From NCBI GenBank assembly GCA_017499595.2, contig CM039004.1, positions 3,162,001 through 3,226,000 on the forward strand: a DNA stretch of 64,000 nt, written 5' to 3'. Of this stretch, positions 23,504 to 54,284 are shown one piece after another; positions within the stretch are counted from its first letter, which is position 1; each line of letters begins with the position of its first letter. A program made the position numbers and the translations under genes. The notes under the pieces were generated by a model. The model saw only the letters and a list, made by a program, of their open reading frames with translations. It made no database searches and was not told where the DNA came from. The stretch is from Psilocybe cubensis. Its lineage: Eukaryota.

Positions 23504-23551
23504 AAGCAGAAGGTGCCCCCTATACCGAACTGTGGTAGTAATTGATAAGTG

Positions 23552-23572
23552 CCTGGACTCTTTAAGTCCAGG
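23552..23572 (-). terminator. Candidate Helitron 3' subterminal hairpin
   Basis: Perfect 8-bp inverted repeat CCTGGACT-CTTTA-AGTCCAGG about 50 bp downstream of the RepHel stop. It is followed on the minus strand by CACTTAT, not a canonical CTRR. Confidence 0.5.
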
Positions 23573-23623
23573 TTTAGGGTGGTAGCATTTTTCTATAAAA
23601 GGAAATAGGTGGTCTCGTTCGGT

Positions 23624-26600
23624 CTAGATTGGTCTAGATTGTTCGACGTCGGACTTCGCTATGTTGTCCAGTCTGTTTAACTCGTTGCGCAGTTCTTCAG
23701 GTAACCGATTGTATATTTTATTCTCAGGGAACCATCGTAGAACTAGTAATCCAGATATGGATTTTACTCTGGAGAGCATTACATATGCACCTTGACCTCT
23801 TGCCGTTAATAAATCAACAATTACCCTATCAAGTGTGCGACCTTGTCCTTTATAGTCTGTGTACGCATACGCTGGTATTAGTGGGACTTGTTTCCGTGTA
23901 AAGCTGTCAAACAATTTGATATGCTTTTGGTATTTAACATCTATTGAAGTCGAAGAAGGGAAAATTGGAACAACATCTTTTTCTAGCCCGTCTACTTGTA
24001 TTCCACAACCTTTGACGTGTACATACACAGCTTTGCAGTATCGACGGTATTTCTCGTCCACTTCATATTTTATGTCTGTGACTATACCCTCAGTGCCATT
24101 GACTATTTTATCATCGAATGCAATGTTTTCTGTTATCATTACTTTCATTCCAATGAAAAGAGGTAGTTTTCCAAGGGCGTCGTTTGTTTTTGTTGAAGGT
24201 AGTCTCCATAATATCTGTTGGAACTCACCTGTAATCCTTTTTTTGTGTCTCTCATCTCGTGAATAGTATATATGTGGTGATATATTTGCTTTTGTTGAAT
24301 GGTACTTGATTAGCTTGGCATTCAGGATGTCTCGTACGGCCTTGTTGCCTACAATGATAGGTGCATCTCTGAACAATGCTAGTGTTTTTGGATTAGAAGC
24401 CTGTTTCTGGATAAGTCTGTTATATATATAATGGTAATCTGACTGTTCATTGTCACTTTTAATATTGTTAATATTACTTCTGCAGAGGCCCAATCTTAGT
24501 CTATCAAGAAAAAGGGCATACTTTATGTCTCTTGCGTGTCTTTCGTTTTTGACTAGTTGTATCACTGTTTTTACTTGTCTCCATAGAAATGCGCCATTTA
24601 GTTGTGATGGTCCTGACACGTTCCGAGCTTCTGCAAAAGACGGGTTCTTCACCAATTCATTTGCATATAATGGCTTTTGTAGAGGGGGTTTTAGTTGTGC
24701 GCAGTCGCCCATAAATATTACATTAATTCCTCCGAATGGTTTATTGCTGTTAACGACGTCATCTCCTTTCCCTTGCCTAATTCTGATAGAGATTTCACTG
24801 AGGAATTTTGCGCTTATCATTGAGGTCTCGTCTATTATTAAAGTTTTTATGTATTTCCAAATTTGAATTAGTTTAAGTTTATTGGGTTTTGCTTGTGACT
24901 GATTTGCATGAGATACTATCAGTGAGTGTAGTGTTTGTCCTCCGATCAGCACTGCCGCTATTCCGGTCGGTGCTCCTAATAATAACTCATTCCTGCGATG
25001 CAAGCGCTCGAATAACATAATCAGACATTTTATCAAATGGGATTTACCTGTACCGCCAACGCCTGCAATATGAATCAGCAACTGTTCCTTGTTGTCGGTT
25101 ATGATATGGTTACCGATGATTCGGAACGCCTTTAGCTGTTCTGGGTTATTTAAAAGTCCCATTTCTTCTGCGATGTTGTTCATGGTGTCAGTGTCTGTTA
25201 TTGAATTGTAATTATGACTTAAATCATACAAATCCTGGAGTATAGCTTGCTTGGCAATAGGTGCATAGTTCCCATTGCGATATCGTTTGGGTGGCGTAGT
25301 TATGTCGTCTGTGTCGGGTTCATGTAGCATTGCACGTTTTCTTTTTGATTTCATGATGGCGCGATGGCTTGCTAACAGATCATCCACTTCATGTGATGTT
25401 AGAGTTTGTTGGTTTACTGGAACTGATTTTTGATATTCCGTGTCCACAGCAGTTTCCGTTGTATCCAGTGGGAGACACATGTCTAGAAATCTTGAAGTTT
25501 CCTCTCCTATGTTATCTATGGAGTCGTGTAAGTTTGTTGTAAAGTCTTCGTTGGGGTTTTCAATGCATTGGAAGGGATCTGGAGAGTATACATCGTTAGG
25601 GTTGAGGGTGTCTGTATTACCTTCCGTGTCTGTTAATATTATATCCTGTACTTCATCGGACACTACATCCTCGGATGTTTTTCCACGTCTGCGCTGCCTG
25701 TGTGCGTCGCGGGCCTCGCTACATTCTGTCAAAGCTTGCATGTTCTGTATGATGCGCGTGTGTTCTAGTTTCATTGATATCTCGTAGTTATGAAATGCGT
25801 CTGTCCATGTTTCTGATGGGGTCTTTAAATCTGATATATCCCTCCACGGTTTGAAGAGGAGTAACATGTCCCTTGCCCAGTCATCTTTTAGTTGATCAGA
25901 CTTCAATGGATTCGGAATAGAAGGGCCTAGTATAATTGGTATACAACTTTTTCTTCTGATTGTCATATAATGGGTGAAATACTCAGGGTGCTCGTCGTTT
26001 AAGAATGATCCTGGACGTACTGCTGTTTCAATGTGTAACATTTCTTTGGTATACCGTTGTTTGATACCCCATGCTACAAAGTCATACAAACACAAATCTA
26101 TGAATTTGTCGTTCGCTGGTCTTAAACAATAGTCCAGTCGTTGGTTGGACGCCGTTATGTCTCTGTCACCCATATTTAACTCAACTGACTCTTCGTTTTC
26201 TTGTTCGTTGGTATTGCTTACGTCGTCTAATGTGCTGTTGTTGGGCGTCTGATTGGATTTAGTGTGATGAGACATGCAAAACCTTCTTATACTGTGCCAT
26301 TTGAGTATAGCAAATTTGTGAGATGTGTAGTGGTCGCCTCCGCCTACTAGATAGCTCATTACTTGTGGTTGTGATATTTCCTGTCTGCCCATCATACTAT
26401 TAACAGCTGTTATGATGGCACCCACTGTTTGATTGTCTGATATTTCTGATTGATTTGCGGACATTTTGCTGTACGCTTTACTTACAGCATACGACAACGC
26501 GGCCATACCTGCATGAACTGGTAGAGATGCCTTTGTTATATAATCAGTAACATAGTACAAGAACGCTTTTGCTGCATCTCCTGACCCTACGAATTTAATG

Positions 26601-29485
26601 TCCATGTTGCACTGCAATAAGAATGATACTATATCAGTGTGTTGCGCTAATCTTGGATGGTGTCTGCGGAGTAGTATCTCTTTTGTTATTTCGTCTAATG
26701 TAGTCTTTTCCAAGGTCTGCCCATTTATACCCATTCTGCAATTATTGTCTGATTTGGATTGACCTCGTTCAAGGTATTTCCAGCACGTTGCTTGGTGCTC
26801 GTGCCATGCGTACTGATGTAAGATTCGCTCCAGGAAGAAGTCGAACTCGAGCCAAAATTGGTTTATATCGGTATAATTTTGTGGGGAAGGTGATTGTATT
26901 ACACCTGGATGAGGATCACCTGTTTCAGTAGATAGTATTCGTCGGGGGTAATCGTTAGTCTGTTGTTCGGATCCTACTGAGTTTGGAAATTCACATTGAA
27001 TTATAGATTCGATCCACATGAACACTCTTGTTTGATAATGTATTGATCGGGTCATTTCATCGCGTAGTTTCTGGGGAGATAAGTGCCCGTGCAACCAAAT
27101 CAGCATGTGGCAATGTAATGTTCCTTTACCTTGTGCCTCGACAGTACCGTAGTACGCTGTACATTTGCCGTATAAACCATTTTCCTCGCGCCCGTATCGT
27201 AATATGACGTTAATGAAGTTGTTTATCATTAGGTCAAAAAAACGTGCACATCCTGAAGGGTTCCGTGCTGCAAAGAGTGATCTTCTCCATTTCGTCCAGT
27301 CCTCTCCTCGTTCGATACTTTCCAATGAAATATCCTCACCCGCTAACAGACGTACGATAGGGTTGTCCACGTCAGACGGGTTGATAGTGATGAATAGTGT
27401 TGGTGTTCCTTTATTATTAATCAATGCCCTGATTTGGTTACGTAGAGTTAGTTTGTAGCCATCGCTCCCGGGTACGTGTTTTGATACCAGTCTGATCGAA
27501 GACAGTAGTCTAAAAGCTTCTTTTTCTTTTGTTTCTGTTGGTTTGTAATACGGATTTTTCTCACATTCTTTGGTTAAGTGACTTAACATGTCTAAATCGA
27601 TATTTAACAGTTCGTTAGCTATTTTCTTGTGTGACGATTGGGATACCGAGAAACGTAGACTCTGGGACACTAGTGCCTTCCGACATATGTTATAGAAAAT
27701 AAACGCGAATTCTGGGTCTTTCGCAAACGGGCTGTCGTCTACTAAAAGAAGATGTTTGAGTTGTTCCTCCATGCTTATTTTAATCTTTCGTCCGGGATGG
27801 TAAAACCCTCCGATACCCCAAGGGTCCAGATGGGGGAATAACCATGTCAAGATCGATGGATTTTGAAAGTCAGGTACCATACTAGATCCTGTACCAGAAG
27901 CCAGGAATGGTTTCCCAGTGAGACATCTCTCCAAAGCAGTTGATTTCATAGTCAGGAATGCCTGTGGTGAGTTGTCTCCAGATGTATATCCTACATTTTC
28001 CATCAGTAATTCATTGTATAATTCGTCCTTTGAATTTTCATCCACATTTCGACATGTATAATCTGCGACGGCTGAGCTGATGGCGTCGTTATCGGTCATA
28101 GCGCCTATATGTACGGCGTGTGGTATACCCTCGTCTTTGTCGTTGTCAAACAAAAGTCTCATATTCTCTTCGCTGTACTCGGTGCTCGCAGAGTATTCTG
28201 GATTTTCGGTTAATAGAAAGTGTATTATTGTCTTTACCCTCGATCTTCGGACTAAGGTAGGTTTATATCTGTGAATGGTCTTACGGTTAGGTAGATCTTT
28301 ACCGATGAATATAGCACACATTGTGTCCCTTATCGTGTCAGACGCAGGTGGTATAACATTGTTCATGCGTATCACGTCTAGCGGTGATACTAGAACGTTT
28401 CCTCTTATACCTTTCCTAGCTCGACTCAACGTATTTTCGTTGTCGTCTTTGTCTTCTGTTTGTGTGGTGTGGTTCAATCTGCACGTGATTACACTGGACC
28501 GTGCTCGCGAACATAACATCCTGTCGAAGATAGTTGAATGTTCTATCGCCGTCTTCACGGTTTCTGGTAAACTTTCAATTCCATAATACATCCAGTTACA
28601 CAAAGCAAATTTAGGCATAGTGAAGGCCGCTAGTGCTTTGTCACATTTTGGACAGAGACATAGCTTGCCAATACGATCACGGTATTCCATGCCTTTATAA
28701 TGCAGTATGGCCTTTCTGTAAATCTTGATATCATAAGTCTTAGGTAAAATTGAATCTGGCAAGTGTGGATTTTGTAGTAGATTCAGCTTGGTATTGTCTG
28801 GGTTTACCCATATACAATCGCGCTTGAAAAACCTCAAAGCGCATGCCGCGCATACTACATTGGACAGTCTGTCCGTAGACATTTCTTGTTTCCATTCCCG
28901 TATAATTTTTAATTTTTCATCTTTCCCGATAGGTTTAAGATGATCTTCGTCGATGGGGACCGCTTTAACTCGATTGGGTTGCTGTGATTCTGTAATCGTA
29001 TCCGCGCAGTCTATACCAGGATTGTCTTGTGGTGGGTTGTTCAAATTTTCTTTGGCAACAGTTCGTCTTTCAAAATCGAAATTGCCACACCGTTCTTCGA
29101 AAATACTGAATATATGTTGACGTGGTCTTGCCATGCATTTGAAAACATATATCAAGTTACTGCATTTGCTACTGCATTGGTGTTCAAATATCTTAGCGAA
29201 TAGTTTGGGTTTAGTTAAACGGGAAAATTGTATGCCATGGGAATCGGCTATGGCTTTCATGTCATTCATAGTAAAATATCTGAACCAGAACATCAGTACA
29301 GAGATACTGACAGTGAATACGAGATTTGTAGTGTCATTTATGTGTTTTATAGCGTCATCATGATAAAGCCATATTGTGGTGAACTTGTAATATTCGTTGA
29401 AACGTAACACTTTAAGCTTTTCTACATATGGACGGCTATATTCGGGTTTGTACCTGTAGATATCGATATCTGAAATTTCGTCCAA
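23624..29485 (-). CDS. Helitron Rep/Helicase (HUH endonuclease + PIF1-family SF1B helicase), uninterrupted ~1950 aa
   Basis: Rep motifs PTLFITINP, YYGTVEAQGKGTLHCHMLIW (HUH), FLYYVTDYITK; helicase motifs GVGGTGKS, IIDETSM, GDCAQLKP, TDYKGQGRTL, AYVMLSR; N-terminal CxxC pairs. The ORF-track start is TTG, so the true start is uncertain. Confidence 0.96.
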   Translation of the reverse strand: MDEISDIDIYRYKPEYSRPYVEKLKVLRFNEYYKFTTIWLYHDDAIKHINDTTNLVFTVSISVLMFWFRYFTMNDMKAIADSHGIQFSRLTKPKLFAKIFEHQCSSKCSNLIYVFKCMARPRQHIFSIFEERCGNFDFERRTVAKENLNNPPQDNPGIDCADTITESQQPNRVKAVPIDEDHLKPIGKDEKLKIIREWKQEMSTDRLSNVVCAACALRFFKRDCIWVNPDNTKLNLLQNPHLPDSILPKTYDIKIYRKAILHYKGMEYRDRIGKLCLCPKCDKALAAFTMPKFALCNWMYYGIESLPETVKTAIEHSTIFDRMLCSRARSSVITCRLNHTTQTEDKDDNENTLSRARKGIRGNVLVSPLDVIRMNNVIPPASDTIRDTMCAIFIGKDLPNRKTIHRYKPTLVRRSRVKTIIHFLLTENPEYSASTEYSEENMRLLFDNDKDEGIPHAVHIGAMTDNDAISSAVADYTCRNVDENSKDELYNELLMENVGYTSGDNSPQAFLTMKSTALERCLTGKPFLASGTGSSMVPDFQNPSILTWLFPHLDPWGIGGFYHPGRKIKISMEEQLKHLLLVDDSPFAKDPEFAFIFYNICRKALVSQSLRFSVSQSSHKKIANELLNIDLDMLSHLTKECEKNPYYKPTETKEKEAFRLLSSIRLVSKHVPGSDGYKLTLRNQIRALINNKGTPTLFITINPSDVDNPIVRLLAGEDISLESIERGEDWTKWRRSLFAARNPSGCARFFDLMINNFINVILRYGREENGLYGKCTAYYGTVEAQGKGTLHCHMLIWLHGHLSPQKLRDEMTRSIHYQTRVFMWIESIIQCEFPNSVGSEQQTNDYPRRILSTETGDPHPGVIQSPSPQNYTDINQFWLEFDFFLERILHQYAWHEHQATCWKYLERGQSKSDNNCRMGINGQTLEKTTLDEITKEILLRRHHPRLAQHTDIVSFLLQCNMDIKFVGSGDAAKAFLYYVTDYITKASLPVHAGMAALSYAVSKAYSKMSANQSEISDNQTVGAIITAVNSMMGRQEISQPQVMSYLVGGGDHYTSHKFAILKWHSIRRFCMSHHTKSNQTPNNSTLDDVSNTNEQENEESVELNMGDRDITASNQRLDYCLRPANDKFIDLCLYDFVAWGIKQRYTKEMLHIETAVRPGSFLNDEHPEYFTHYMTIRRKSCIPIILGPSIPNPLKSDQLKDDWARDMLLLFKPWRDISDLKTPSETWTDAFHNYEISMKLEHTRIIQNMQALTECSEARDAHRQRRRGKTSEDVVSDEVQDIILTDTEGNTDTLNPNDVYSPDPFQCIENPNEDFTTNLHDSIDNIGEETSRFLDMCLPLDTTETAVDTEYQKSVPVNQQTLTSHEVDDLLASHRAIMKSKRKRAMLHEPDTDDITTPPKRYRNGNYAPIAKQAILQDLYDLSHNYNSITDTDTMNNIAEEMGLLNNPEQLKAFRIIGNHIITDNKEQLLIHIAGVGGTGKSHLIKCLIMLFERLHRRNELLLGAPTGIAAVLIGGQTLHSLIVSHANQSQAKPNKLKLIQIWKYIKTLIIDETSMISAKFLSEISIRIRQGKGDDVVNSNKPFGGINVIFMGDCAQLKPPLQKPLYANELVKNPSFAEARNVSGPSQLNGAFLWRQVKTVIQLVKNERHARDIKYALFLDRLRLGLCRSNINNIKSDNEQSDYHYIYNRLIQKQASNPKTLALFRDAPIIVGNKAVRDILNAKLIKYHSTKANISPHIYYSRDERHKKRITGEFQQILWRLPSTKTNDALGKLPLFIGMKVMITENIAFDDKIVNGTEGIVTDIKYEVDEKYRRYCKAVYVHVKGCGIQVDGLEKDVVPIFPSSTSIDVKYQKHIKLFDSFTRKQVPLIPAYAYTDYKGQGRTLDRVIVDLLTARGQGAYVMLSRVKSISGLLVLRWFPENKIYNRLPEELRNELNRLDNIAKSDVEQSRPI

Positions 29486-29901
29486 CGCGTGAAATCGGAA
29501 TTAATCCGTGTCAATTTAAATTCATTTAATATCAAGTTTCAAGTTTAACCAGATTTGAATTGGATACAAGGTGACGAATCGAATTTTTCATCAGCGATAA
29601 TTCCCATAGGTAAAACGATTACTTACCGCGTTGCAGAGTCGACGCTTTCAACGACGATACCGTGTTTTGTGTGTTAATATAAGTGGTCTGCGTTGTGTAA
29701 TTTGACAGATAGTTCTACTATAAGTTTTTGTAAGCGCTCACCATTCTTCAATATATCTGGAAATGGGTCTGTCGGGGCGTTGGTGTTGATTTTATCTGTT
29801 CTGGTCTTTTGTCTTATTTAAATAGGGTGTACTCGTTTATATAGAGTTTTGTCTGTGTATGGTATCTGGTACTGTTACTGAAATTCGTTCAATGATTCTT
29901 T

Positions 29902-30311
29902 AATTGGGTCCAGTCACGAACTGTTCATGTAACACCAAGTAGGCGACACTTTGTCCGCCGTGTGTTGTTATTTTGTTTGGTTGTCAGATCATATGAGTAA
30001 TAGCAACTATCACGCTAACTAGTCAGCACTTTTACCCATCGTGGGAGGAAGTGTACGTGTTTATGTTTACGTGATGACGTATGCAAGTATTACTGTCACT
30101 TAGCTTGTGTTTAATTGGGTCCAGTCACGAACTGCTCACGTAACACCAAGTAAGCAACACTTTGTCCGCCGTGTGTTGTTATTTTGTTTGGTTGTCAGAT
30201 CATATGAGTAATAGCAACTATCACGCTAACTAGCCAGCACTTTTACCCATCGTGGGAGGAAGTGTACGTGCTTATGTTTACGTGATGATGTATGCAAGTC
30301 TTAGCTCGTGT
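29902..30311. repeat. Tandem duplication, ~211-bp period, 2 copies
   Basis: AATTGGGTCCAGTCACGAACTG... starts at 29902 and again at 30113; the copies differ by scattered substitutions and a short indel near the end. Confidence 0.95.
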
Positions 30312-30423
30312 TGTAAGTGACGGTGTATTGCATTCTGAGTCTCTTTATGTGTAAACCGCGACGTAGATTTAAGGTCAGGTCGTCAGACAGAGTCAGTGTG
30401 CGCAAGTTCACAGCTCCATTGTT

Positions 30424-31737
30424 ATGGCGAATCTTGGTGAGCGCCTCAAATGTCGCGGTTTGTTGTGTTTGTAATGTTATGATAGAGATTCATAGGTTCT
30501 CTCCCGCTCGAATTCTTATTCTTGATGCGCAGGAGCGACTACTCGCTAAGGATTCGCGGCGTTTTGTTCTCTTTCCCATTCGGTACATTAAGGTGTTGTT
30601 GTTAATGTAACATTTTTTCCTTCGGGACTAACTTTGTTTGAATTGCCTTGGAACTGCCCTGTTCAGATTTGGAAAGCATACTTGCATGCTGTGACGACGT
30701 TATGGGAAGCACGTTGTGCTGGTTTATCACGTGACTCTAAGGATTGGACTGAGTGTCTGTCATTCCAACAACGATGCGGTGGCATCTTCTTTTTCAAACT
30801 TTCTATTGCTTCTCATGGGATACATAAGCGACTATTGGATATAATCTCCAAAGAAATTACAGTCCCAGAAGCACATTGCTATTTCAGTTTCCAGTCGGTC
30901 AAGTGGGTGTGAATTTTTTATACATGGATTTATCTCAGGATTCGATTAACAACGTTCTAACAGTGAAAACGTCCACCAGGAGGCGATGGCCAAGATTACG
31001 CACGGTCTCACAGGAATTCGAATGGACGATTGCGTCGATGAATGGGAACTCTTGCGTCCAAAGGAAAAATTTATGAATATTTGGACGAGATCTTCCGTGT
31101 ATCCTTTCTCTGAGAGGTTGCTCGTTTTTATATTCATTCAAGGAATATTTGGTATTTCTCTGTCCCGGCTTCTACAATGGTTTTCTGGCAAAGATTACCT
31201 CCCAACTATGGTATCTACTTACACCCGGATCTTCAATGACAGGGAATGTCATGTAGACTTTGTCTCGCTGCTTTTTTATCATTTGAAAAGGCGTCCGTTA
31301 ACCAGTTTTGTCAACGAATTCGTCGGGACCATTGTTAAAATCGAAAAAAAATTCGGCAGTGGTATGATAATGGTTTGTTTTTTAATGGTCCGTGTCTGAT
31401 TAGCATGCTGAATATTATAGATTTGCTGGACCTTTCCGAGATAGACATTCCATTAGACGACCTGAATCGGTACGTGGAATGCAAAGCAGACGCCCTTCTG
31501 GTGTCTCTTGGGTACAAGCAATTGTACGGTACATGTAACAAAGTATGACATTGTTCGTCTGAATTTGGGATTCAGTTGACGAGTTTTTAGGGGATCGATG
31601 ATCTTATCCCTATCGTCCCTGGGGAACTGAAAGCTGGTTTTTTTCTCGAGGAGATGGCGCTGGCGTATATCCCCCCAACTATGGAAGACGCTATTTTAGA
31701 CGGACAGTTCGGTAATCATCTCCTTGACCTTTCTTGA
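30424..31737 (+). CDS. Divergent ribonucleotide reductase small subunit (R2/RNR2)-like protein, probably catalytically inactive; 6 exons, open frame throughout
   Basis: Spliced MANLE...ERLLAKDSRRFVLFPIRYIK|IWKAYLHAVTTLWEA...IASHGIHKRLL...VPEAHCYFSFQSVN|ENVHQEAMAKI...FSERLLVFIFIQGIFG...FNDRECHVDFVSLLFYHLKRRP...IEKKFGS|DLL...YVECKADALLVSLG...|...KAGFFLEEMALAY...LDLS*; collinear with eukaryotic R2 along its length. Confidence 0.88.
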
Positions 31738-32038
31738 ACATGTTATATGGTTTATTCATACTTTTTGTTGATGTAATATCTATGTACCCGCTACTGAAGG
31801 GTAAATCCTAGACACCGTGGAATAATACAACTTCCTGTTGAAATTAAACCCTTGTCATAGAGTTCTGGATGGGAAGGTGAATACTGTTTCATTCCAATTA
31901 TCCGTCTGTGGTGATTTTGCGCTCTTTAGACTGTATGCCCAGTATCAATCTCGGAAAACTCCAAGCGCGTGGCAATCTATCAGTTCATATTACTGTGACT
32001 ATCCACCCAACCAATGTCCACTTATTATGCTGTGACTA

Positions 32039-32195
32039 ATGTACTCCCACCCCGCGCCCGCGCAGGCGCAGGCGGCACAGCCCAAAGCACCTGAAAACGA
32101 GCTCTTCTCGTTCGACTTCCACGCACCGTCTCTGGTGCAGAACACGGCTGTGATGGAGCAGCCGAAGAAAGACGTGAAGCAGAATATTTTGTCGT
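32039..32195 (+). pseudogene. Captured internal fragment of an ArfGAP-like host gene
   Basis: GC-richer patch encoding ENELFSFDFHAP...QPKKDVKQNILS, recalled as resembling the C-terminal region of basidiomycete ArfGAPs; no upstream domain present. Confidence 0.5.
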
Positions 32196-32329
32196 TTACA
32201 TTAATCAGCGTTTGTACGCTGCCTCTGTTTTCTTGTGATTATGATAGACATTAAAATTTCATGTAGACTGTAGGTTGTACAGACTTTCTCATGCTTGGAT
32301 TAGGGTATGTACCTCAATGGGTATCTTGG

Positions 32330-34197
32330 TATCGCTGTGCTTTTCTATACCGCTTCACTGGCGGACTCGTGTTACTCTAGGAGAAGATGGTATGTATGAA
32401 GATGTTCTACGCTTTTGGATGGACAAAGACAAAGAAGGCAACACACCCGACGCGTTGCAGGAGGTTATCGAGCATCTCATGTACCAAGGAAAGGCCTGTC
32501 CTCATCTATACTCGCTTGTTCTGAGGTTCTTGACCTCGACGCCGGAGCTGCTTAACCGACATCAAACTGGTTTGAAGGACATCCTGGAGCATATCGACGA
32601 CGTGCAATTGATTCTCCTTGGGAGTCTTACAAGTTTTGAGTCGAAATGGAGTGGCGAGTGTCGGTTTAATGAAGCAATGGTTGATCAAGACGATCAAGGA
32701 AAGTAGGAGTGAAATTCAGAATGTAAGTTTCCCTTTCTATTTAATCTGTTCGTTGTTTTTCCTTTCGTAGGATCAAGCTCTCACGAAATCGTATCGTCTG
32801 GAGATCGTTGACAGGATAAAGCAATTTGCTGAATTGACAAACACAGAAGAGTCTCGGGTGTTCTATGACAAGGTGCTCCAGTTACATCGACCAGCTCGAT
32901 CTTCCCAGCGTGCACTTCATGTGTAACCGTTCTTATCATCCATGGTATGTATTGTGTGTATATCTTCTTCTGCGTGTCTTCTGTACGTGTATTCCTCTAA
33001 TCGCCATTCGCTTGCTCGTAGGTACATCGCGGACGGGCACTGGAAAATGTCAGTGCAATGTCAGTGCGGTCAGTGCATGTCAGTGCATACCACAGCAATG
33101 TCAGTGTAAACTGCAGTGATGTCAGTGCAGTGTCAGTGCATGTTTCAAATCATCTATAAATTGGTCAGGGTGTGTCAGTGCGTCCTGGGTTATGTTAGTG
33201 CGTTGGTTAGTTCATCGTGTGGTGGCAAAGTTTTTACTTGTTAGATTGAAAGTCGTGGGCCGTGAGAAAGTTAACTTAGGGAGGATTAAAACATACAGTC
33301 TCGGAATTTATGGGCCAGACATGGCTAAATAACAAGATATAGAAGTAGACATATATTTTCTACATTTTCAAGTAATGATCCGGTGTACTAAATCAAGCAT
33401 AGATGTTGGAAAATGAATGAATTATGCTGGAATCATTAGATAGACGCCTCAGAGTATCCCTGTGTATAAATGATCCAATATGCTTGTTTGACAATGATTT
33501 GGGATCATACTTGGCTGCAGGCGCAACAATGCTTTGAAATATTGGCCTTAGCTTGGGTGCGGTTTTTTAGTAGGGAGGACGTCCCTATGACACAGCTAAA
33601 AGGGAAAGGGAACTAGAAAGTCCCATCGGTGCATCCTAGTTGAGCAGGTCTTTGGGACAGTTGATGGACCAGAGGTAATTCATACCAGTCTACCTACCTA
33701 CCATTGTGTTCTTCGTTTGAAATAAAAGATAACATGATTATAAGGTAAAAATAATGTCAGTGCATCGTCAGTGCACCATTACTGAAAGTCAGTTTATGTC
33801 AGTGCATGTGAGTGCACCGTCAGTGCATGTGAGTGCATCGTCAGTGCATGTAAGTGCACCGTCAGTGCATGTCAGTGCACAGTCAGTGCAAATGCTTGGC
33901 GGTCAGTGCATGTGTCAGTGCATCAACTCTTGGCAGTCAGTGTTAAAATAATTCTAGGAGGATACTAGATTTCCAGACACTTAAAATCCGGTCAAAATCC
34001 ATCTAAGTAATCCTGCAATAAACATAGTTTTATTGTATAGAAGTACAGACTTCAATTTTTTCACAAATCCTAAGTGATGTCAGTGCATGTCAGTGCATAG
34101 ACATTATATTGTCAGTGAATGTCAGTGCCGACGTGCACTTACATGCACTGACATGCACTGACATTTCTTGTTGCCCATCGCGGACAACGAAGTCGGT
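32330..34197 (+). pseudogene. VPS11: Captured VPS11/PEP5 3' fragment (with introns), disrupted and interrupted by a MITE
   Basis: GLVLL*EK.GMYEDVLRFWMD...HLYSLVLRFLTSTPELL...LQVLSRNGVASVGLMKQWL...|DQALTKSYRLE...QLDLPSVHFMCNRSYH...|YIAD[MITE]NEV; a TGG>TAG stop and frameshifts are present. Confidence 0.85.
33035..34176. mobile_element. Non-autonomous Mutator/Foldback-like DNA transposon (1142 bp) with 9-bp TSD
   Basis: Perfect TSD ATCGCGGAC at 33026-33034 and 34177-34185; imperfect TIRs GGGCA(N4-5)AAATGTCAGTGCA; arrays of TCAGTGCA(TG) repeats near both ends and at 33755-33940. Confidence 0.92.
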
Positions 34198-35007
34198 AAT
34201 AACATGGAGATTTGTTTGAAGGGCGGTGGTGTTATACCAACGTCTGTCTGTCCGGAATGCGGTGAAGCTAATAGAGGAGTGTTTCACATGTTGCTTGACA
34301 CAAATACTGTAGATTCACGTTTCGAAGGAATCCTCAGGGACATGGGCGTCACTGATCGAGTTTTCTACTGACACAGACAGTGTATCTCATGACAAACGTG
34401 GTCTTATATTTCTGAACCTGGTGAAATGATAGTTTAAATAAATAAATGTCATATGCAATGAAGCTCATGTACTTTGTACTGAATCGCGAACGATCGCAAA
34501 GCAACCTCCATCAACTTAAATAATTCCCGTGATTGAAAGGAAGTGGGTTTTGTGGTTTTTTTTTTAATCGCCAAATTTTGGCGCGTTGGGTCGTGTCTCT
34601 GCAACCATTTACATAAACTCATACGTTTCACGGTCAAATTCGGTCCGCTGATCCTCTTTTTCCTTGTGCAGTTTCCGTGTGGCAATGTTTTGTTTCACGA
34701 ACTCTTTCGTTGTTGACCCATGTATCGTTGCTTATGGTCTGCTTTTATATTGAGATAGCCTCCAGGCCTGTGTCTGTCCCGTTTGACTCTGTAAATACCC
34801 ATTCTTTACTGTTTCGCTTTCCTTTAAATTTCTACGCTTGTTCTTCGTTGTATCGCTGCTATTGACCATTTTTAACAGTGACATCACTCCTAACCTATCT
34901 CTTACGTCTGCTGTGCGATTTGTCGTATTGTCGGAGGAGTTAGATGTCGACTCAGTCATTGGCGATAGTTAGTTGCCTGTTTGTGAAGTGTATAAGGTGC
35001 GTGTCTG

Positions 35008-35057
35008 TTTTTTTTTTTTTTTTTTTAGTTGTATTCTAATCCTCAATACCTGATTAT

Positions 35058-35109
<52 letters not shown>

Positions 35110-35193
35110 CTACAAATTGCTTAATTACATGCCTTACAAAATCCAATTTCATACCTACGAATTGCTTAATCCCATGCCTTACAACAATATTCA
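35008..35193. repeat. Poly(T) tracts (T19 at 35008-35026, T49 at 35059-35107) followed by a 45-bp tandem duplication
   Basis: Directly visible; CCTAC(A/G)AATTGCTTAAT... at 35109 and 35154. Confidence 0.85.
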
Positions 35194-42250: not shown

Positions 42251-43648
42251 CATGTGATTTGTTTGGTGTGACTAAGAAAGTGTAAACGGTCCCGGTCAGC
42301 GCTTCAGCGCTTCAGCAACCAAATCCACTTCATTGCAGACGTCGATTTTACTCGTGATCTACTGTCCCACATACCCTTCCCCCGTTCGCGACAAGCAGAA
42401 GCCTACCACTATGCTCATCCAGTACAAGCGACAACTTTCCCGTAGTCTTCCTTCACATCGCCTTCGCTACGAAGTATATTTTATGCTACTTCCGCCAAAC
42501 TTCCGTGTCGACACGACATCGTGGAGCTGTTTGCTACCGTCTACTCCCCTTTCCCTGTCAACGAGTCCGCTCTCACACCCTGTTCTCGTTTACTTGACAG
42601 CAGACAATATCTGGTCACCTCTGGTTTGTTACTATCAAAATCCTCATATGTTCGATGATATTCAGTGACACTCCCCCCTCATATCGAAATTCGTACTACT
42701 GCTTGTCTACTAACCATATATTCCCATTCTCGTTCGCTCGAGTAAAGTAAAGTAGCGGCTTGTTTTTTACTGTTGACATTGTCGCTATATCAGCTACATT
42801 TTTGATATAGATAAAAATACTATCGTGAACAGAACATTATTCAGCGGATAACTCAGATTGATCTGGGACCTTTACTCTACTATACCAGCTAGGGTAATCA
42901 TGGGAGAGAGAACCCTCCCTTGGGTGAAACGGATGCAGATGCAGATGCTAGCAGGATAGTATACGCGAATACGAAAACAGAGGATAAGAAGAGCGAAAAG
43001 CGCATTTTGATACTCTTGGGGTTCTATTTCAACCGCGTCGGCGTTCCGGTGCCTCCCCGTGCAGGCGGCACCCCGCTACTTGTATGTCGTGGAGGATGGA
43101 GGTGCGACGGCGGAGTGTATGTCACGGTGGTGGCGGCTGCAGCGACACGCAGGAGCGGAATGGAGGGCGTGTGCGCCATGCGCTCCATGTAGTTGTGGGC
43201 GGAAAATAATGGCGTCAGAGGAGGGGTGGAGGGCACAACACAGAGCGCTCTGTGTGTTGTGGTAGGCAAGGTGGAGCGTGGCGGCAATGCGAAAGCCATA
43301 ACATACATGGCATTGTCGGAGGTGTATCATCAGTCATCGTTCAACCCAACATGTCCTCCCCACTGGCCATCTCACCCGCTTCCCATCGCTTCATCGCTCC
43401 TCTGCACATTTTGTACGCCTCAACTTTACTAGTCATACGTGATACCACAACCATCTCTCCTGTATGCCATCGGTTCAACCCTCATCGGCCTGAGCTTCGC
43501 ATAGCGAGGTACGCATTCTGCACCAACGGATGGCCTGAATACACACCGATGAGAGTACTCAGTGTTCCACGCTGTGCAAATCAAATTACCACCGATACTA
43601 TGGGGATGGAACTCAACGTGTTGCGGAGCTTCGTATGGTGCATACAGA

Positions 43649-46739: not shown

Positions 46740-47489
46740 ATGAACCAACCTATCACTCAAAATCAGCTACGACTTGCGATTCAAAACGGATTTGTTACCT
46801 TACCAAACACAGTCAGACCTGAAGAATTTCTAAACGAAAGAGTGGTATTATACCGTGGGGACACTTTCGACGACAATATTTCTTACCGGGCTATCAATAT
46901 TGTTGGACAAATTGCCGATGCGACTGACATTACCACTTCGGCAACTAATGGTTCTGTTGTAGGGGACGAAGATGGTGCCGATGTAAGATATATTCAACCA
47001 ACAATCAACGGGTATATTCTGATGAATGTAGCACCTAATTATTCTAGAATGTTTTAACTGTACCGCCACTTTTTGGACGGAACTTTGGTGCGCTCAAATA
47101 AAGGGGATGCGGACATTTTTAAACAAAGCTGAAAAAATATATCCTTGGACCGGCATGGTATGTGCTCACTATCGAGGCAACCATCCATGATTCACCATCT
47201 ATAGGCTGGAGGGGTTGAATCTACTTGTATCAACTTTATGGATGTAAACGAGAGAGAAGCCAAAATATCAGTTTATTGGAAAAAAACGATGACGTCAATT
47301 CTCGACGAAGAGGGGCGAGATATACCGAAAGGAATTTGGGCAAACAGTTTGTGTCCAGGGAAATGGATTCTGATTGAAGCGGTAATCGTGTGCGCAGAGG
47401 ATTTAGTGGACGACTGGAAAATGGGGGTGTATCGGAATTATCGTGCCTGGGGCCGAAGTGCTCAAACGATAAAGATAAATAAAACGTAA
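46740..47489 (+). CDS. Intact 3-exon orphan gene (~220 aa), beta-rich, possible OB-fold-like protein
   Basis: TATAAAAA at ~46697; GT..AG introns give an open frame MNQPITQ...INIVGQI...DGAD|HLIILECF...WTGM|AGGVES...LCPGKWILIEAVIVC...YRNYRAWGRSAQTIKINKT*. The fold is inference. Confidence 0.7.
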
Positions 47490-48920: not shown

Positions 48921-49107
48921 CTATGACACTTCTTCTTGTCTCGCCACATTCAGTACACCTCTCCCGAACGCGGATGCGATAGCCTCGAATCTATTCTCCT
49001 CGACCTCCGCAAGGAATAAATCATGTCTATCAGCAAGCTTATCATCGCTCAGCTTGTTCTCGCGTATGACACCATGTTCGCGTGCATACGCGAGTCTACT
49101 TTGTTGT
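48921..49107 (-). pseudogene. VPS11: Second captured VPS11 fragment: extreme C-terminus
   Basis: Open frame QQSRLAYAREHGVIRENKLSDDKLADRHDLFLAEVEENRFEAIASAFGRGVLNVARQEEVS*, matching the Vps11 C-terminal segment that follows the RING finger. Confidence 0.8.
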
Positions 49108-50233
49108 CTATGGTTCCGGTCAGTAGAACGTTTTTGTGTTTAATAACAAGTCATTCGACAGAGCATACGCTGACTAGGATTAACCTGATTTTTTTAGACG
49201 ACAATGACGATCACCACTAGTGTTATTTTTAATATTGTCGATGCGGCAAGGCAGAACGCCTTGGCTACTCTTTCGTAGAGGTGGGGGCTAAACCGAACAT
49301 GTAAGTCAACAATGGGGTATTTGAGTGACTGTGTAAGATTCGTGTGCAGTGTTCAATCTCAGATACAAGCTGTTATGGATTTCTTTGTTTTGATAGGAAA
49401 TCGGAATTGTATACTTTTCGAGGCTTCTATTCTGGACTACATATGCATTCTGGGTTCATCATGTCACTCGACGACAGAAATGATTCAACTATTAACGACA
49501 AATAACCCAGACTTTACTACACCTGTTACTGTGTGAGATGCCCCTGGACCAGGCACTCAGGGACTGTTCCTCTGGCATTGGGGTCAAAAAAAAAAAAATG
49601 ATGTGGATGTTCATTGTCCCTACAGTTCTAGTCGTTTCTGAGTAAAAGAGTACAACATCATCAACAAACGTGAAAAGCTAGGATTTAATTGACGGCACTA
49701 CTGGGCAGACTTCCCGATGCCATCAAACACATGTCGTCGTGTTATTGACATGCGTACACGTAGGGTCTATACTGTACAGTATCTAGGTAAGCTTTGAGAT
49801 CAAGATGGGAGCTGAAGTCGCTTGGACGGGCAGAGGCGAAGGGTTATGATGAAGCTCATGCATCAAGAAAACCGCCATGTACAGAGGAAAGGTGCGAGGA
49901 TGTTAGAACATTAAATTGGTACGGCGTTCCATAATCGAAGAATAGAGGGCATCGCCACGCATATACTCGACATCAGTAAACTTTTGGACGTAGAGATCTG
50001 CCGTACATCGCGCCTACAAACTTTCCACTCAACCTCTACGCTTCCGGATGGTTTTCGACAACAAGGTTCTACAAACCACTATAATACCCTTTGCTTTTAC
50101 ATGTATAGGCATATACGACTCATAGTTTCAATTTGATACCGAGTCGCACATCATACTTGCTGTGTATGGATGAAACGGTCGCATAAATGCGCGTATGATG
50201 AAGTTTGTGAGTGTCTGCATTTGCAACTAGGGC

Positions 50234-52399: not shown

Positions 52400-53758
52400 T
52401 TAAGAACGATTAGTATTTTTTCCTCCTCTACCCGATCGAAGCCGGTTTTTGGAATTGGTTTCAGGTGCATCAACATGCACGTAGTCGTCATCTAACACGG
52501 GTTCGTCGTTCATATTGATGTCTTCCTCTTTCTCGACATGACCTTTCCTTCGATAGGAGTCTTCTTCTTGGTTGTATGAATCATGCAACCTAATCCGTTT
52601 TACTGGTCTAGGAGAATGATCTGGTTAAAAAAAGATACCTTGCGCATTAGATGAATATCGACCATAATAAAGCTTAGCAACTAACCATCTGTGAACTCGA
52701 CGATGTCCCCGGCGCAAAGTAAATTGAACGACTCGTCAACGGATGGGAAGAGTGAATGATCGGCTTTAGAATGTATTTGCTCCGGTAATTTCCCTACCCT
52801 TACAAATTCTATAGGAATGATTTCCGGCCACCAATAGCCACCAGTAACAACAAACCCTAGCTTGAATGTCATCCAAATAATGTCTCCTTGCTTGAAGGTA
52901 GGTTCGTTAGAGTCCGCAAGACTGCTAATTCGATTTTCCGTAAATTCAAAGTATTTCGGTCTGTCTGGGTTCGGTATTTGATGAGCTTCAGGGAATCGTG
53001 TTATGCCTTCCTTCAGCCAAGGGTGAACTTCATAAGGGACTTTATATTCGCCACCCTCTTTGGTATTGAATGCTGAACGGTTCGCGAAAACTCGAGTGTT
53101 AATGATATATTTATCTCTATTAGTCGAGCTGCGACCGTTCTGCCATGGTCTACGAGGTCTGTTCCCTTTGTTAAATCCAGGTTGACGGCATACATGATCT
53201 TCAAAAATCTTCCCGTCATTGGCGGTCATAGAACGGAATTAATATAGTGTAGGAAGATACCTTGATATTGTCCCATATGCTAGTATCGCGGGATGTGTCG
53301 AAGGCGTAACTAAATTTACATTTAAACGATGGTTCATCTTGACTATTAATTGATATGAAAAGTGGTATTAATATACAATGATACTTTACATGCAAATTCA
53401 CTTACATTTGCCCGTCAGGTACGCCTTCGGGTGCCTCCTCTCCATACGGTACAAAATTTCCGGTTTCGAGGTCAGTAGTCCATTTCCATATACCCGCGTG
53501 TACTAGTACAGCCACTTTCCCTGTGACAGTGTCACAGACCTGTAAGCGCGGACTATGGTCAACCGATATATTTTGTGATTTAGTATGAGCAGTGAGACTG
53601 ACTATCCATTTCGAATTATTTAAACCTGGTCGTGCTACCACCAAAGGGTCGTTCGTATTCAAGGAGATGGCCGCTTTCGTGAAGGTGATGTCCTCCTTTC
53701 TTAATTTCTTTGACTGCCATATAGTCATTATGTCAGATATTTCTTGTGTGTGAGACAT
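52400..53758 (-). CDS. Intact 4-exon orphan gene (~390 aa), possible ssDNA-binding/OB-fold-like protein with acidic and basic tail
   Basis: TATAAAAG upstream (~53840); GT..AG introns join ORFs 53402-53758, 53216-53401, 52681-53229 and 52400-52588 in frame; beta-rich FKQGDIIWMTFKLGFVV...WWPEIIPIEFVRVG; NLS-like PVKRIRL; D/E-rich tail. Confidence 0.72.
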
Positions 53759-54108
53759 AATGGAAGTCGAGTGTAAAATGTGATAAGAAGGGGTCGTTCA
53801 ACTGGTACAATCGAATATAACCTGTTGAAGTATATTCTTTTATAGCTGTATCATGTCGTAAAATGTGTCTACAATGCTAAGGCCAATGTTTTTTCAACTT
53901 TGGAAGGGTATAGTAATCGTGATGATATAATACAATTTGATCCAAATGCGGGATGGTTGTGCTTTTTGCAACGTAATTAAGATTAGTAATATGAGTAATA
54001 CGTCGCACGTAAGTGGGAGGATGCTTACGAGCAATTTTCTGACTGATTCGTCGTATATATCATCGTACAGCGAAGAAGTGTTCTGTTGCTACCGAACAAT
54101 ATATTCGA

Positions 54109-54284
54109 ATGGCCGACCACGACTACGCAAAGGATACTCTTTTCACTTCGATGGCATGTTTACCCCCAAATTTAATCTACCGGATAATGTCGTTCTGTCA
54201 CTTAGAACAGTTGATCGCAATGAGAGGGACTTCACGTCTCACTCGAGAAATTGTTCAGTCGTACGTCAGGTACATCTGGGGTTT
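54109..54284 (+). CDS. F-box domain protein, 5' part only (cut by assembly gap)
   Basis: MADHD...LPPNLIYRIMSFCHLEQLIAMRGTSRLTREIV fits the F-box pattern LP-x-E/N-L-x3-I-x-S-F...L-x-x-V/T-S/C-R. Confidence 0.7.

What the first reader, a model, noticed from the sequence alone, without database searches (positions are those of the whole stretch)
23546..54284. Candidate giant cargo-carrying Helitron-like element with its own accessory gene set
Seen: conserved host genes stop at ~23.5 kb and resume only after the gap. In between are an intact RepHel, a pseudo-R2, two intact spliced orphan genes (46740-47489, 52400-53758), an F-box gene, captured fragments and nested MITEs. Two consecutive pieces of VPS11 at 32-34 kb and 49 kb tie distant parts of the block to a shared history. 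Established: Helitrons capture host genes, including in mushrooms (Pleurotus HELPO elements), and some plant Helitrons encode RPA-like proteins. Inference: this may be one element of 21-31 kb or more with a virus-like kit (initiator/helicase, SSB-like, RNR-like, ubiquitin-ligase adaptor).
Basis: partly seen in the sequence, partly recalled or inferred. Interest (0 to 1): 0.8.

Follow-up and report, generated by a model that had tools for sequence, protein, structure and literature searches.

The report
Giant multi-gene Helitron in a mushroom
The block is most likely a very large rolling-circle transposon of the mushroom Psilocybe cubensis. It carries its own virus-like DNA-replication helper genes, and a set of this kind and size has not been described for fungal Helitrons.

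Summary
An open 1958-codon RepHel frame (23624-29500, minus) ends 73 nt before a sharp boundary at 23550/23551, just past an 8-bp hairpin.

In three other strains the left-flank contig runs to 23550 and then continues into unrelated DNA. Those strains still hold the block almost unchanged.

The "pseudo-R2" is an intact six-exon gene for an RNR-small-subunit-like protein that has lost its radical tyrosine and three metal ligands. "Orphan 2" (52400-53758) is not an orphan. It belongs to a family of 238 clusters and folds like the ssDNA-binding proteins of phage T7 (gp2.5) and African swine fever virus (CP312R).

The R2-like, VPS11-fragment and SSB-like proteins each occur as identical copies on 3-4 contigs of one P. 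cubensis assembly, with neighbouring accession numbers. In metagenome relatives, R2-like, SSB-like and F-box-like genes flank RepHel in the same order and are under purifying selection.

Not shown: the 5' end (hidden by the gap), RepHel in every copy, and movement of the whole block as one piece. "Orphan 1" has no support. The 32-33 kb VPS11 piece rests on reading alone.

Verdict: a new variant of a Helitron-like element, at least 30.7 kb long. Confidence 0.6.

The parts
23549..23572 (-). 3' terminus of the element. An 8-bp-stem, 5-nt-loop hairpin (23552-23572) is followed by 1-2 nt. The limit is at 23550/23551.
   Evidence: Fold gives -9.1 kcal/mol, z -3.9, and 0 of 200 shuffles fold as well. 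Flank contigs of X5, X6 and X9 stop aligning at 23550. Two X9 contigs enter at 23550 from other contexts.
23624..29500 (-). RepHel gene (Rep nuclease plus PIF1-type helicase, with an N-terminal DUF6570). The frame is open for 1958 codons and the first ATG is at codon 69.
   Evidence: The HxH, YxxxY and Walker A/B columns are invariant in the alignment of 15 relatives. The nearest database relative is 53% identical.
29899..30303 (.). A 211-bp tandem duplication (1.9 copies, 95-96% alike) in the divergent RepHel/R2-like intergenic region.
   Evidence: It explains the contig breaks at 29975 and 30241 in the other strains.
30424..31737 (+). R2-like gene (RNR small-subunit fold). Six exons encode exactly P0273 (340 aa). 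The radical Tyr and three metal ligands are replaced.
   Evidence: Pfam Ribonuc_red_sm, exact gene model, alignment to yeast Rnr2 1smq_A.
32039..32706 (+). Annotated 204-aa gene (P0274) over a putative VPS11 middle fragment. VPS11-like reading continues to about 32960.
   Evidence: Exact model. It always carries the next accession after the R2-like gene in the P. cubensis annotation. The VPS11 identity is by eye only (searches found nothing).
33035..34176 (.). Nested multi-copy repeat (about 6.5x) whose ends are inverted arrays of a 10-11-nt unit. It sits at the break in the VPS11 fragment.
   Evidence: Depth is 332-338 against about 50, and loose ends lie at 33034/33035 and 34176. Tandem arrays were found.
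34506..35287 (.). A 782-bp insertion, present or absent between strains, holding a 49-nt T run.
   Evidence: The joint 34505->35288 has 24 other letters in X5 (1 contig) and X11 (13 reads). The T run was found.
46740..47489 (+). 'Orphan 1': two ORFs in one frame. Not supported as a gene.
   Evidence: Only introns of 177-222 nt join them. No Pfam match. No homologue of 62-198 aa.
48924..49139 (-). VPS11 C-terminal fragment, inverted relative to the 32-33 kb piece. One inversion of about 16 kb would join them.
   Evidence: Pfam VPS11_C, E 6.2e-12, 45.9 bits against a cut-off of 25. The inversion is inference.
52400..53758 (-). SSB-like gene ('orphan 2'). Five exons encode exactly P0272 (371 aa): an OB-fold core at residues 1-270 and a disordered acidic-then-basic tail.
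   Evidence: Family of 238 clusters. Fold results.
54110..54284 (+). Start of an F-box-like gene, divergent from the SSB-like gene and cut after 58 codons by the gap.
   Evidence: E 1.2e-4 to my family profile; tblastx match to L001:1926-2042. The same divergent pairing is seen in 6 related loci.
54285..54384 (.). Assembly gap of 100 N. The rest of the F-box-like gene and the expected 5' end are missing here.
   Evidence: After the gap a different minus-strand coding frame runs straight into the Ns.

Best explanation
The block from 23551 to at least 54284 is one copy of a large, recently active Helitron-like element of the DUF6570-bearing (HLE2-type) group in Psilocybe cubensis.

The core is a divergent gene pair: RepHel, the HUH nuclease plus 5'-3' helicase that nicks, unwinds and re-joins one strand, and an R2-like gene. 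At the far (5') side sits a second divergent pair: a viral-type ssDNA-binding protein and an F-box-like protein.

Between the two pairs lie about 19 kb of lineage-specific DNA: a split and inverted VPS11 fragment, small nested repeats, and DNA with no recognisable gene.

Inferred mechanism:
- RepHel starts at a 5' end that lies in or beyond the assembly gap.
- It peels off the strand up to the terminal hairpin at 23552-23572.
- The SSB-like protein coats the displaced strand.
- The F-box-like and R2-like proteins act on host ubiquitin and dNTP pathways.

Shown: gene identities, conserved linkage, multi-copy status of three genes, the sharp 3' limit, and absence of this junction in other strains.

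Inferred: one-piece mobility, the roles of the accessory genes, and the position of the 5' end.
For: 1. RepHel is open and its catalytic columns are conserved.

2. The 3' limit is sharp.
- The flank contigs of X5, X6 and X9 align to 23550 and then run on into sequence that does not match 23551-43000. In X6 this is 1,595 nt.
- Two X9 contigs enter the element at 23550 from other contexts.
- A hairpin ends 2 nt before the limit.

3. The same strains hold 23609-29975, 30241-32542, 34311-34994, 36550-38965 and 39854 to beyond 43000 with 0-12 differences per contig.
- Depth is even along the block: X5 23-27, X6 20-30, X9 102-136.
- The flank contig's depth differs: 41.6, 13.9 and 83.

4. Identical proteins sit on several contigs of one P. 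cubensis annotation.
- R2-like: KAH9474294, KAH9477364, KAH9479911, and KAH9484785 as a fused model.
- VPS11-fragment gene: KAH9474295, KAH9476973, KAH9477365, KAH9479912.
- SSB-like: KAH9475412, KAH9476968, KAH9479915, KAH9484788.
- Accession neighbourhoods: ...911/...912/...915, ...785/...788, ...968/...973.

5. The window encodes all three proteins exactly.

6. Linkage in relatives.
- R2-like lies directly upstream of RepHel in 11 of 21 loci (8 of 17 after merging near-identical pairs).
- SSB-like plus F-box-like genes lie upstream in 6 of 13 loci. L013 and L022 have the window's order.
- Gymnopilus dilepis has RepHel CVT26_010999 with the SSB-like CVT26_011003, and CVT26_001258 with CVT26_001256.
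- 5 of 22 SSB-family clusters looked up share a contig length with a RepHel hit.

7. All genes of the L008/L012 pair have similar dS (0.33-0.61) and dN/dS of 0.03-0.35. R2 of L011/L015 has dN/dS 0.07-0.085.

9. In the RepHel tree the window sits in the clade that holds all the SSB-carrying loci in the tree.
Against: - The 5' end was not found. No inverted or direct partner of the 3' terminal sequence lies in the window.
- No P. cubensis RepHel of 1076-3427 aa is among the 120 listed hits. So RepHel in the other copies is unverified.
- In raw reads of X11 the block is no deeper than the flank (about 50 against 43). It is low-copy in that strain.
- A sister subfamily (L011/L015/L023/L024) shares only R2+RepHel, about 7.7 kb. 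A 5' end near 32 kb is therefore conceivable.
- The window lacks the Y, X1 and X2 genes of relatives.
- About 19 kb in the middle has no recognisable gene.
- The 3' end is not CTRR.
- Reading accession order as genome order is my inference.
- Where the flank contigs of other strains continue was not seen. The stretch laid ended at 43000, and 13 joints and 207 loose ends were not shown.
Confidence: 0.6

Rival explanations
1. Composite region. The true Helitron is only RepHel plus the R2-like gene (23551 to about 32 kb, roughly 8 kb), as in the L011/L015 subfamily. The VPS11 fragments, repeats and the SSB/F-box pair are neighbouring DNA, perhaps a second non-autonomous element. The whole was copied by segmental duplication, or the parts were copied by separate transpositions.
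For: - The shared unit of L011/L015/L023/L024 is R2+RepHel, about 7.7 kb. Its limits lie about 0.3 kb past R2 and about 15 nt past the RepHel stop.
- One SSB-like accession (KAH9475412) is not near any listed R2-like accession.
- The middle of the block has no recognisable gene.
- Extra partial copies share only the 3' 88-480 nt.
Against: - The VPS11-fragment gene follows the R2-like gene in 4 listed copies, and the SSB-like gene lies 3-5 accessions away in 3.
- No joint from 23550 to about 32 kb appears among the 15 joints shown.
- Depth is even from RepHel to 43 kb in 4 of 4 runs.
- The SSB/F-box pair is linked to RepHel in other species, in the same order.
Confidence: 0.25
2. An integrated circular replicon (virus-like episome) that uses RepHel, SSB and R2 for its own replication and integrates at varying points, rather than a classical transposon.
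For: - The kit is viral in type. The best structural matches of the SSB are giant-virus proteins: 99 BFVD matches at E<=1e-3, with mimivirus R506 at 2.5e-8.
- The gene order looks rotated between lineages. The X2/X1 genes lie downstream of RepHel in L001, L003, L008 and L013, but upstream in L006, L015 and L009.
Against: - No capsid or packaging gene turned up in any Pfam scan.
- No RepHel relative was found in the viral contig collection.
- The 3' limit is sharp and constant, as in transposons.
Confidence: 0.08
3. Assembly artefact. A collapsed or chimeric join at 23550 and at the gap makes unrelated pieces look like one block.
For: - There is a 100-N gap at the right edge.
- The flank-to-element junction is not seen in 3 of 3 other strains.
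- Multi-copy DNA is hard to assemble.
Against: - Four runs flagged as possible sources hold all sampled words of 18601-28600, which spans the junction.
- The junction falls exactly at a hairpin-bearing terminus that is also used in other contexts.
Confidence: 0.04
4. An ordinary gene-poor host region with one small Helitron. The 'orphans' are host genes.
For: Orphan 1 and the middle of the block show no mobile-element features.
Against: Three block genes are multi-copy and identical, and they are linked to RepHel across species.
Confidence: 0.03

Closest known systems
HELPO1 Helitrons of Pleurotus ostreatus (PMC4289320; abstract, section 7 and passages read)
   Same: These are basidiomycete autonomous Helitrons that carry whole genes of unknown function (cap genes). 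capB is found next to RepHel in several other basidiomycetes. They show presence/absence between strains.
   Different: - HELPO1 elements are 1.5-13.7 kb with 1-4 cap genes downstream of RepHel. No RNR or F-box term occurs in that paper's text.
- Here the accessory genes lie upstream.
- They include an R2-like and a viral-type SSB gene.
- The block is at least 30.7 kb.
Helitron-like elements with RPA, Ssb-like_OB, OTU, UCH or FBA_3 domains (HELIANO survey, PMC11417382; section 22 and one supplement file searched)
   Same: Accessory ssDNA-binding and ubiquitin-pathway domains recur at fixed positions beside RepHel. DUF6570 marks the HLE2 group.
   Different: - The SSB here matches no Pfam model and has the T7 gp2.5 / ASFV CP312R fold, not the RPA or archaeal Ssb fold.
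- 'Ribonuc' occurs 0 times in the supplement file held, and RNR is not named in section 22.
Large gene-capturing Helitrons of maize (as summarised in PMC6431247, passages read)
   Same: They reach tens of kb. That review gives up to 39 kb, and 6-7 kb up to 14 kb for fungi.
   Different: Maize elements are mostly non-autonomous carriers of host gene fragments. Here the element has an open RepHel frame plus whole accessory genes. Only the VPS11 pieces look like captured fragments.
Starship elements of Pezizomycotina (PMC9156397; search listing only)
   Same: They are giant cargo-carrying mobile elements of fungi, variable between strains.
   Different: Starships use a tyrosine-recombinase 'captain' (recalled). 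No such domain appeared in any Pfam scan here. The enzyme here is a RepHel, and the host is a basidiomycete.
T7 gp2.5-type SSBs of phages and giant viruses (PDB 1je5, 5odj, 8hw5/7yeq)
   Different: Sequence identity is 5-10%. The protein is encoded by a fungal nuclear mobile element, has introns, and ends in a basic stretch. DNA binding is untested.

Membership tests
Autonomous Helitron-like element | One ORF with a Rep (HUH, two Tyr) domain and a PIF1-type helicase domain | tested here: met
   Helitron_like_N E 3e-36 and PIF1 E 1.2e-22. The H796/H798, Y983/Y987, GxGKS and DE columns are invariant in 15 relatives.
Autonomous Helitron-like element | Subterminal hairpin at the 3' end | tested here: met
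   An 8-bp stem at 23552-23572, z -3.9, 1-2 nt from the limit set by contigs.
Autonomous Helitron-like element | Same ends at different genomic sites, with empty sites in other individuals | tested here: inconclusive
   For the 3' end, two other contexts were seen in X9 and the junction is absent in X5, X6 and X9. The 5' end and a precise empty site were not seen.
Canonical Helitron (HLE1) | 5'-TC ... CTRR-3' termini, inserted between A and T | tested here: not met
   On its own strand the 3' end reads ...GAGTCCAGGCA followed by CTTATC. There is no CTRR. The 5' end is unknown.
HLE2 (Helentron / Helitron2 group) | DUF6570 in the RepHel frame. The HELIANO survey finds it almost only in HLE2. | tested here: met
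   DUF6570 E 1e-24. The family rule comes from PMC11417382, section 22.
HLE2 (Helentron / Helitron2 group) | Insertion between T and T, and short terminal inverted repeats (the second is recalled) | tested here: inconclusive
   The limit is ambiguous by 1-2 nt. A ...GGCAC|TTATC reading would fit T-T. No inverted partner lies in the window, which is expected if the 5' end is in the gap.
RNR small subunit (class I R2) | Pfam Ribonuc_red_sm fold over the full length | tested here: met
   P0273 residues 4-291 align to yeast Rnr2 residues 59-352, E 2.8e-38.
RNR small subunit (class I R2) | Radical tyrosine and the Asp/Glu/His metal ligands | tested here: not met
   In the window copy: D->H, Y->M, E->Q, E->R. 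These residues are kept in L006, L011, L015 and L023.
T7 gp2.5-type SSB | OB-fold core of the gp2.5 / CP312R type | tested here: met
   Model pLDDT is 83 and above 90 for residues 1-270. The top 11 Foldseek hits and the top 8 VIA hits are all of this family. This is a predicted model, not a solved structure.
T7 gp2.5-type SSB | Binds single-stranded DNA | not testable with these tools
   Needs a binding assay.
F-box protein | Pfam F-box or F-box-like domain above threshold | tested here: inconclusive
   The window fragment (58 codons) has no Pfam hit. Relatives give sub-threshold hits. One (L008:16728-17162) scores 21.9 bits against a cut-off of 20.5.
VPS11 | VPS11_C domain, plus the preceding RING and solenoid | tested here: inconclusive
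   VPS11_C is met at 48924-49139. The 32.0-33.0 kb piece has no Pfam or PDB sequence match.
Starship | Tyrosine-recombinase captain gene at one end (recalled) | tested here: not met
   No such domain in ORFs of 80 aa or more across the block and flanks, nor in 115 shorter ORFs.

The most novel reading that the evidence does not exclude
Agaricomycete fungi harbour a lineage of Helitron-like elements that are semi-autonomous replicons. These would be 17-31+ kb units with a conserved, selected replication module: Rep-helicase, a giant-virus/T7-type SSB, an RNR small subunit that is catalytic in some lineages and dead in others, and several F-box adaptors. The gene order is rotated between lineages, as expected for a circular intermediate or a viral ancestor. 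The P. cubensis copy would be active today.
Probability: 0.2. Interest if true: 0.9.

Novelty: new variant of a known kind. Interest (0 to 1): 0.72.

Why it matters
Helitrons are usually seen as one-gene transposons that pick up host fragments by accident.

Here a RepHel travels with whole helper genes kept under purifying selection across species: a viral-type ssDNA-binding protein, an RNR small-subunit copy and F-box-like proteins. That points to a rolling-circle element supplying its own replication helpers. It narrows the gap between Helitrons and Rep-encoding ssDNA viruses.

At 30.7 kb or more the block is about twice the largest fungal Helitron quoted in the review I read (14 kb, PMC6431247). 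It also sits in a basidiomycete, where no giant cargo-carrying element of the Starship kind came up in my searches.

The strain-to-strain differences suggest current activity in a cultivated mushroom. If so, transposition could be tested directly.

Tried and rejected
- No whole genome is held for the window. The protein Atlas could not read new sequence.
- PDB sequence searches with the two 32-33 kb ORFs and the 49-kb ORF gave no VPS11 match. The oligo-1,6-glucosidase hit at E 0.011 is taken as chance.
- Orphan 1: no homologue of 62-198 aa. Other lengths were not searched.
- A partner of the 3' end was sought with exact 11-mers and with a 13-mer allowing 2 mismatches. Only the site itself was found.
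- Self-comparison of the window at DNA level gave no long terminal repeats. At protein level it showed no likeness between the left-flank paralogues and the right F-box-like fragment.
- My profiles of the relatives' Y, X1 and X2 families had no match in the window at E<=1.
- A profile of the SSB family against PDB sequences gave only a chance-level hit, E 0.31.
- The Y-family fold had pLDDT 59.5. That is too poor to search with, so it was left.
- The viral contig collection gave no RepHel relative. The SSB alignment was too variable to scan with.
- A possible deletion junction 24028|39006, suggested by read starts and ends, was dropped. No such joint is among those listed.

Full report
**What is in the window.**
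The window has one 100-N gap at 54285-54384. Left of 23.5 kb and right of the gap, ORFs carry ordinary host-type domains. On the left these are GATA, L37e, GH76, a GRF finger and an S24/S26 peptidase. On the right they are DAP3 and M43.

Between them lies a block of lower G+C. [quoted passage not shown] In an alignment with 14 relatives, the HUH histidines, the paired tyrosines and the Walker motifs are invariant. The first ATG is at codon 69, although the 68 codons before it still align with relatives. The true start is therefore open.

**The 3' limit, and other strains.**
I laid Logan contigs of three other runs (X5, X6, X9) and raw reads of a fourth (X11) on 23001-43000.

- In all three contig runs, the only contig covering the left flank aligns up to 23550 and then continues into sequence that matches nothing in 23551-43000. 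In X6 that continuation is 1,595 nt.
- Two X9 contigs enter the element at 23550 from other contexts.
- One X9 contig carries a 245-nt internal deletion (23638->23884).
- An 8-bp-stem hairpin (23552-23572, z -3.9) ends 1-2 nt before this limit.
- The end is not CTRR.

All three runs nevertheless hold the block as contigs 23609-29975, 30241-32542, 34311-34994, 36550-38965 and 39854 to beyond 43000, with 0-12 differences each. Within a run these contigs have alike depth, which differs from the flank contig's:

| Run | Block contig depth | Flank contig depth |
|---|---|---|
| X5 | 23-27 | 41.6 |
| X6 | 20-30 | 13.9 |
| X9 | 102-136 | 83 |

In X11 the depth is flat at about 45-60 from the flank through 43 kb, with three exceptions. 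The repeat at 33.0-34.3 kb reaches about 335. A smaller repeat at 39.0-40.3 kb reaches 72-95. The first bin inside the element reaches 72.

So the block behaves as one unit, with its own low and variable copy number. Its junction with this flank is specific to the window's strain.

Caveats: 13 joints and 207 loose ends were not shown, and the stretch ended at 43000. I did not see where the flank contigs go.

**The genes of the block.**

*R2-like gene.* Six GT-AG exons (30424-31737, plus strand) reproduce the database protein P0273 exactly. It is 340 aa and named ribonucleoside-diphosphate reductase small chain of Psilocybe cubensis. It aligns over its whole length to yeast Rnr2 (E 2.8e-38). 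The radical tyrosine is replaced by Met, and three metal ligands are replaced by His, Gln and Arg. The gene is intact but the protein is catalytically dead. It is not a pseudogene by structure.

*VPS11 pieces.* Two exons (32039-32706) give P0274 exactly, a 204-aa hypothetical protein. I read this and the next ORF as a VPS11 middle piece with half a RING. No Pfam or PDB sequence search supports that. The VPS11_C domain at 48924-49139 on the other strand is solid (E 6e-12). A single inversion of about 16 kb, with one breakpoint at the nested repeat 33035-34176, would join the two pieces. That is inference.

*SSB-like gene ("orphan 2").* Five exons (53758-52400, minus strand) give P0272 (371 aa) exactly.

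*F-box-like gene.* Divergent from the SSB-like gene, a reading frame starts at 54110 with an LPPxxIYxI-type motif. It is cut by the gap after 58 codons. It matches my profile of the relatives' F family at E 1.2e-4.

*Orphan 1.* It needs an intron of 177-222 nt and has no homologue in the length range searched. I do not count it as a gene.

*The rest.* Between 34.3 and 52.4 kb no ORF has a credible Pfam match.

**Orphan 2 is an SSB-like protein.**
Its largest exon finds 238 representative clusters at E<=1e-3, of which 154 are at E<=1e-10. None of the 20 hits scanned has a Pfam domain.

With 49 relatives the AlphaFold model has pLDDT 83 (above 90 for residues 1-270) and a disordered tail. The fold matches are:

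- Foldseek against PDB: the 11 best chains are all T7 gp2.5-type ssDNA-binding proteins, namely DUF2815, Enc34 SSB, gp2.5 and ASFV CP312R.
- Predicted viral structures: 99 matches at E<=1e-3, led by giant-virus proteins.

A shared fold does not prove the function. DNA binding is untested.

**Copy number in P. cubensis.**
Exact look-ups show each protein under several accessions of one annotation series, on several contigs.

| Protein | Accessions listed | Contigs / UniRef count |
|---|---|---|
| P0272 (SSB-like) | KAH9475412, KAH9476968, KAH9479915, KAH9484788 | 4 contigs, n=6 |
| P0273 (R2-like) | KAH9474294, KAH9477364, KAH9479911 | 3 contigs, n=5 |
| P0275 (fused R2-like model) | KAH9484785 | 1 contig |
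| P0274 (VPS11 fragment) | KAH9474295, KAH9476973, KAH9477365, KAH9479912 | 4 contigs, n=5 |

At most four accessions are printed per protein.

P0274 carries the next accession after the R2-like gene in three listed copies. The SSB-like gene is 3-5 accessions away in three copies. If accession order follows genome order (my inference), the unit from the R2-like gene to the SSB-like gene, 23 kb in the window, is repeated at least three times with identical proteins.

No P. cubensis RepHel appears among the 120 listed RepHel hits of 1076-3427 aa. The best hit there is 53% identical. So RepHel in the other copies is unverified. The even depth is the only evidence that RepHel and the rest share one copy number.

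**Relatives.**
A scan of metagenome contigs with the RepHel alignment gave 43 loci. I used tblastn/tblastx, ORF clustering, Pfam and profiles of my own.

- *R2-like gene.* It lies directly upstream of RepHel, and divergent from it, in 11 of 21 loci that have at least 1.6 kb upstream. After merging near-identical pairs this is 8 of 17.
- *SSB-like gene.* It lies with a divergent F-box-like neighbour upstream in 6 of 13 loci that have 10 kb upstream (L001, L008, L012, L013, L017, L022).
- *Shared layout.* Those six loci run SSB/F pair, Y, F, (R2), RepHel, then mostly an F-box gene (X2) and X1. In L001 this spans about 18.8 kb.
- *The window.* Read in RepHel orientation, it has F, SSB..., R2, RepHel. 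This is the order of L013 and L022, but with about 19 kb more in between and without Y, X1 or X2.

The catalytic motifs of R2 are intact in L006, L011, L015 and L023. They are degenerate in L001/L007, L002, L004/L017, L009, L031 and the window.

| Comparison | dN/dS | dS |
|---|---|---|
| R2, L011 vs L015 | 0.07-0.085 | 0.6-0.76 |
| RepHel, same pair | 0.15 | 0.556 |
| All seven gene pieces, L008 vs L012 | 0.03-0.35 | 0.33-0.61 |

They fit co-inheritance under selection.

In named genomes, Gymnopilus dilepis has RepHel CVT26_010999 with the SSB-like CVT26_011003, and CVT26_001258 with CVT26_001256. Of 22 non-self SSB-family clusters looked up, 5 share a contig length with a RepHel hit.

A FastTree of 22 RepHel frames puts the window, on a long branch, in the clade holding all the SSB-carrying loci in the tree. 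L022 was not in the tree, and rows under 1000 aa were left out.

**Evidence against one big element.**
- The subfamily L011/L015/L023/L024 shares only R2+RepHel, about 7.7 kb. Similarity ends about 0.3 kb past R2 and about 15 nt past the RepHel stop.
- The L008/L012 similarity has a clear left limit, but it runs to the contig end on the right. That pair could be syntenic rather than two insertions.
- The window's 5' end was not found.
- In X11 the block is low-copy.

**What is known.**
- The review PMC6431247 (passages read) gives 6-7 kb as typical for fungal Helitrons, up to 14 kb, and up to 39 kb in maize.
- PMC4289320 (abstract, section 7 and passages read) describes HELPO1 elements of 1.5-13.7 kb with cap genes downstream of RepHel. 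'Ribonucleotide' and 'F-box' occur 0 times in its text.
- PMC11417382 (section 22 read, one supplement file searched) lists 20 accessory domains, including RPA, Ssb-like_OB, FBA_3, UCH and DUF6570. 'Ribonuc' occurs 0 times.
- Searches for Helitron with ribonucleotide reductase (12 papers, listings only), with Psilocybe cubensis (1 unrelated paper), with gp2.5 (no listed paper holds both), and with fungi, cargo and giant (23 papers, 20 listed, listings only) showed no description of this set.

**Verdict.**
The kit and its linkage to RepHel are well supported. The multi-copy status and the strain-specific junction make a mobile unit much larger than 8 kb likely. One-piece transposition of at least 30.7 kb is the best reading but is not shown (confidence 0.6).

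Noticed in passing
window 19658-20773 (-) and 22171-23503 (-): Two tandem paralogous genes in the left flank, 34-41% identical by tblastx. The second starts 47 nt from the element's end. Neither matches the element's F-box-like families at E<=1.
   Followed up: partly
window 35720-36234: X9 holds two versions of this stretch, one with 1 difference and one with 45. X6 holds only the divergent one. About 40% of X11 reads show the divergent letters. This is either a second allele or a paralogous copy inside the block.
   Followed up: no
window 23551-24028: There is extra read depth in X11 (72 against about 50), and many reads end at 24028. In X5, X6 and X9 the RepHel contig starts only at 23609. 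Other, shorter copies seem to share the 3' terminal 88-480 nt, possibly non-autonomous relatives.
   Followed up: partly
window 38936-39883 (approx.): A repeat of about 0.9 kb at 1.5-2x depth, with 41-nt direct repeats at 39084 and 39741. Contigs of all three strains break at both of its sides.
   Followed up: no
L015:14481-15968 against L023: Two 99.4%-identical loci from two samples differ by a 1.5-kb insertion that splits the RepHel frame in L015.
   Followed up: no
L006, L009, L015, L023, L031 against L001, L003, L008, L012, L013, L022: The F-box gene X2 and the small gene X1 lie downstream of RepHel in one set of loci and upstream in the other. This looks like a rotated gene order or tandem elements.
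   Followed up: no
L008:7185-7841, L013:7010-7474 and 4 more: A conserved domain of about 120 aa (Y family, 21 invariant columns, dN/dS 0.025) has no Pfam match. Its fold model is poor, pLDDT 59.5.
   Followed up: partly
window 29297-29500 (-): The 68 codons before the first ATG of RepHel are open and align with relatives' N-termini, yet hold no ATG. Either an upstream exon or a lost start is possible.
   Followed up: no
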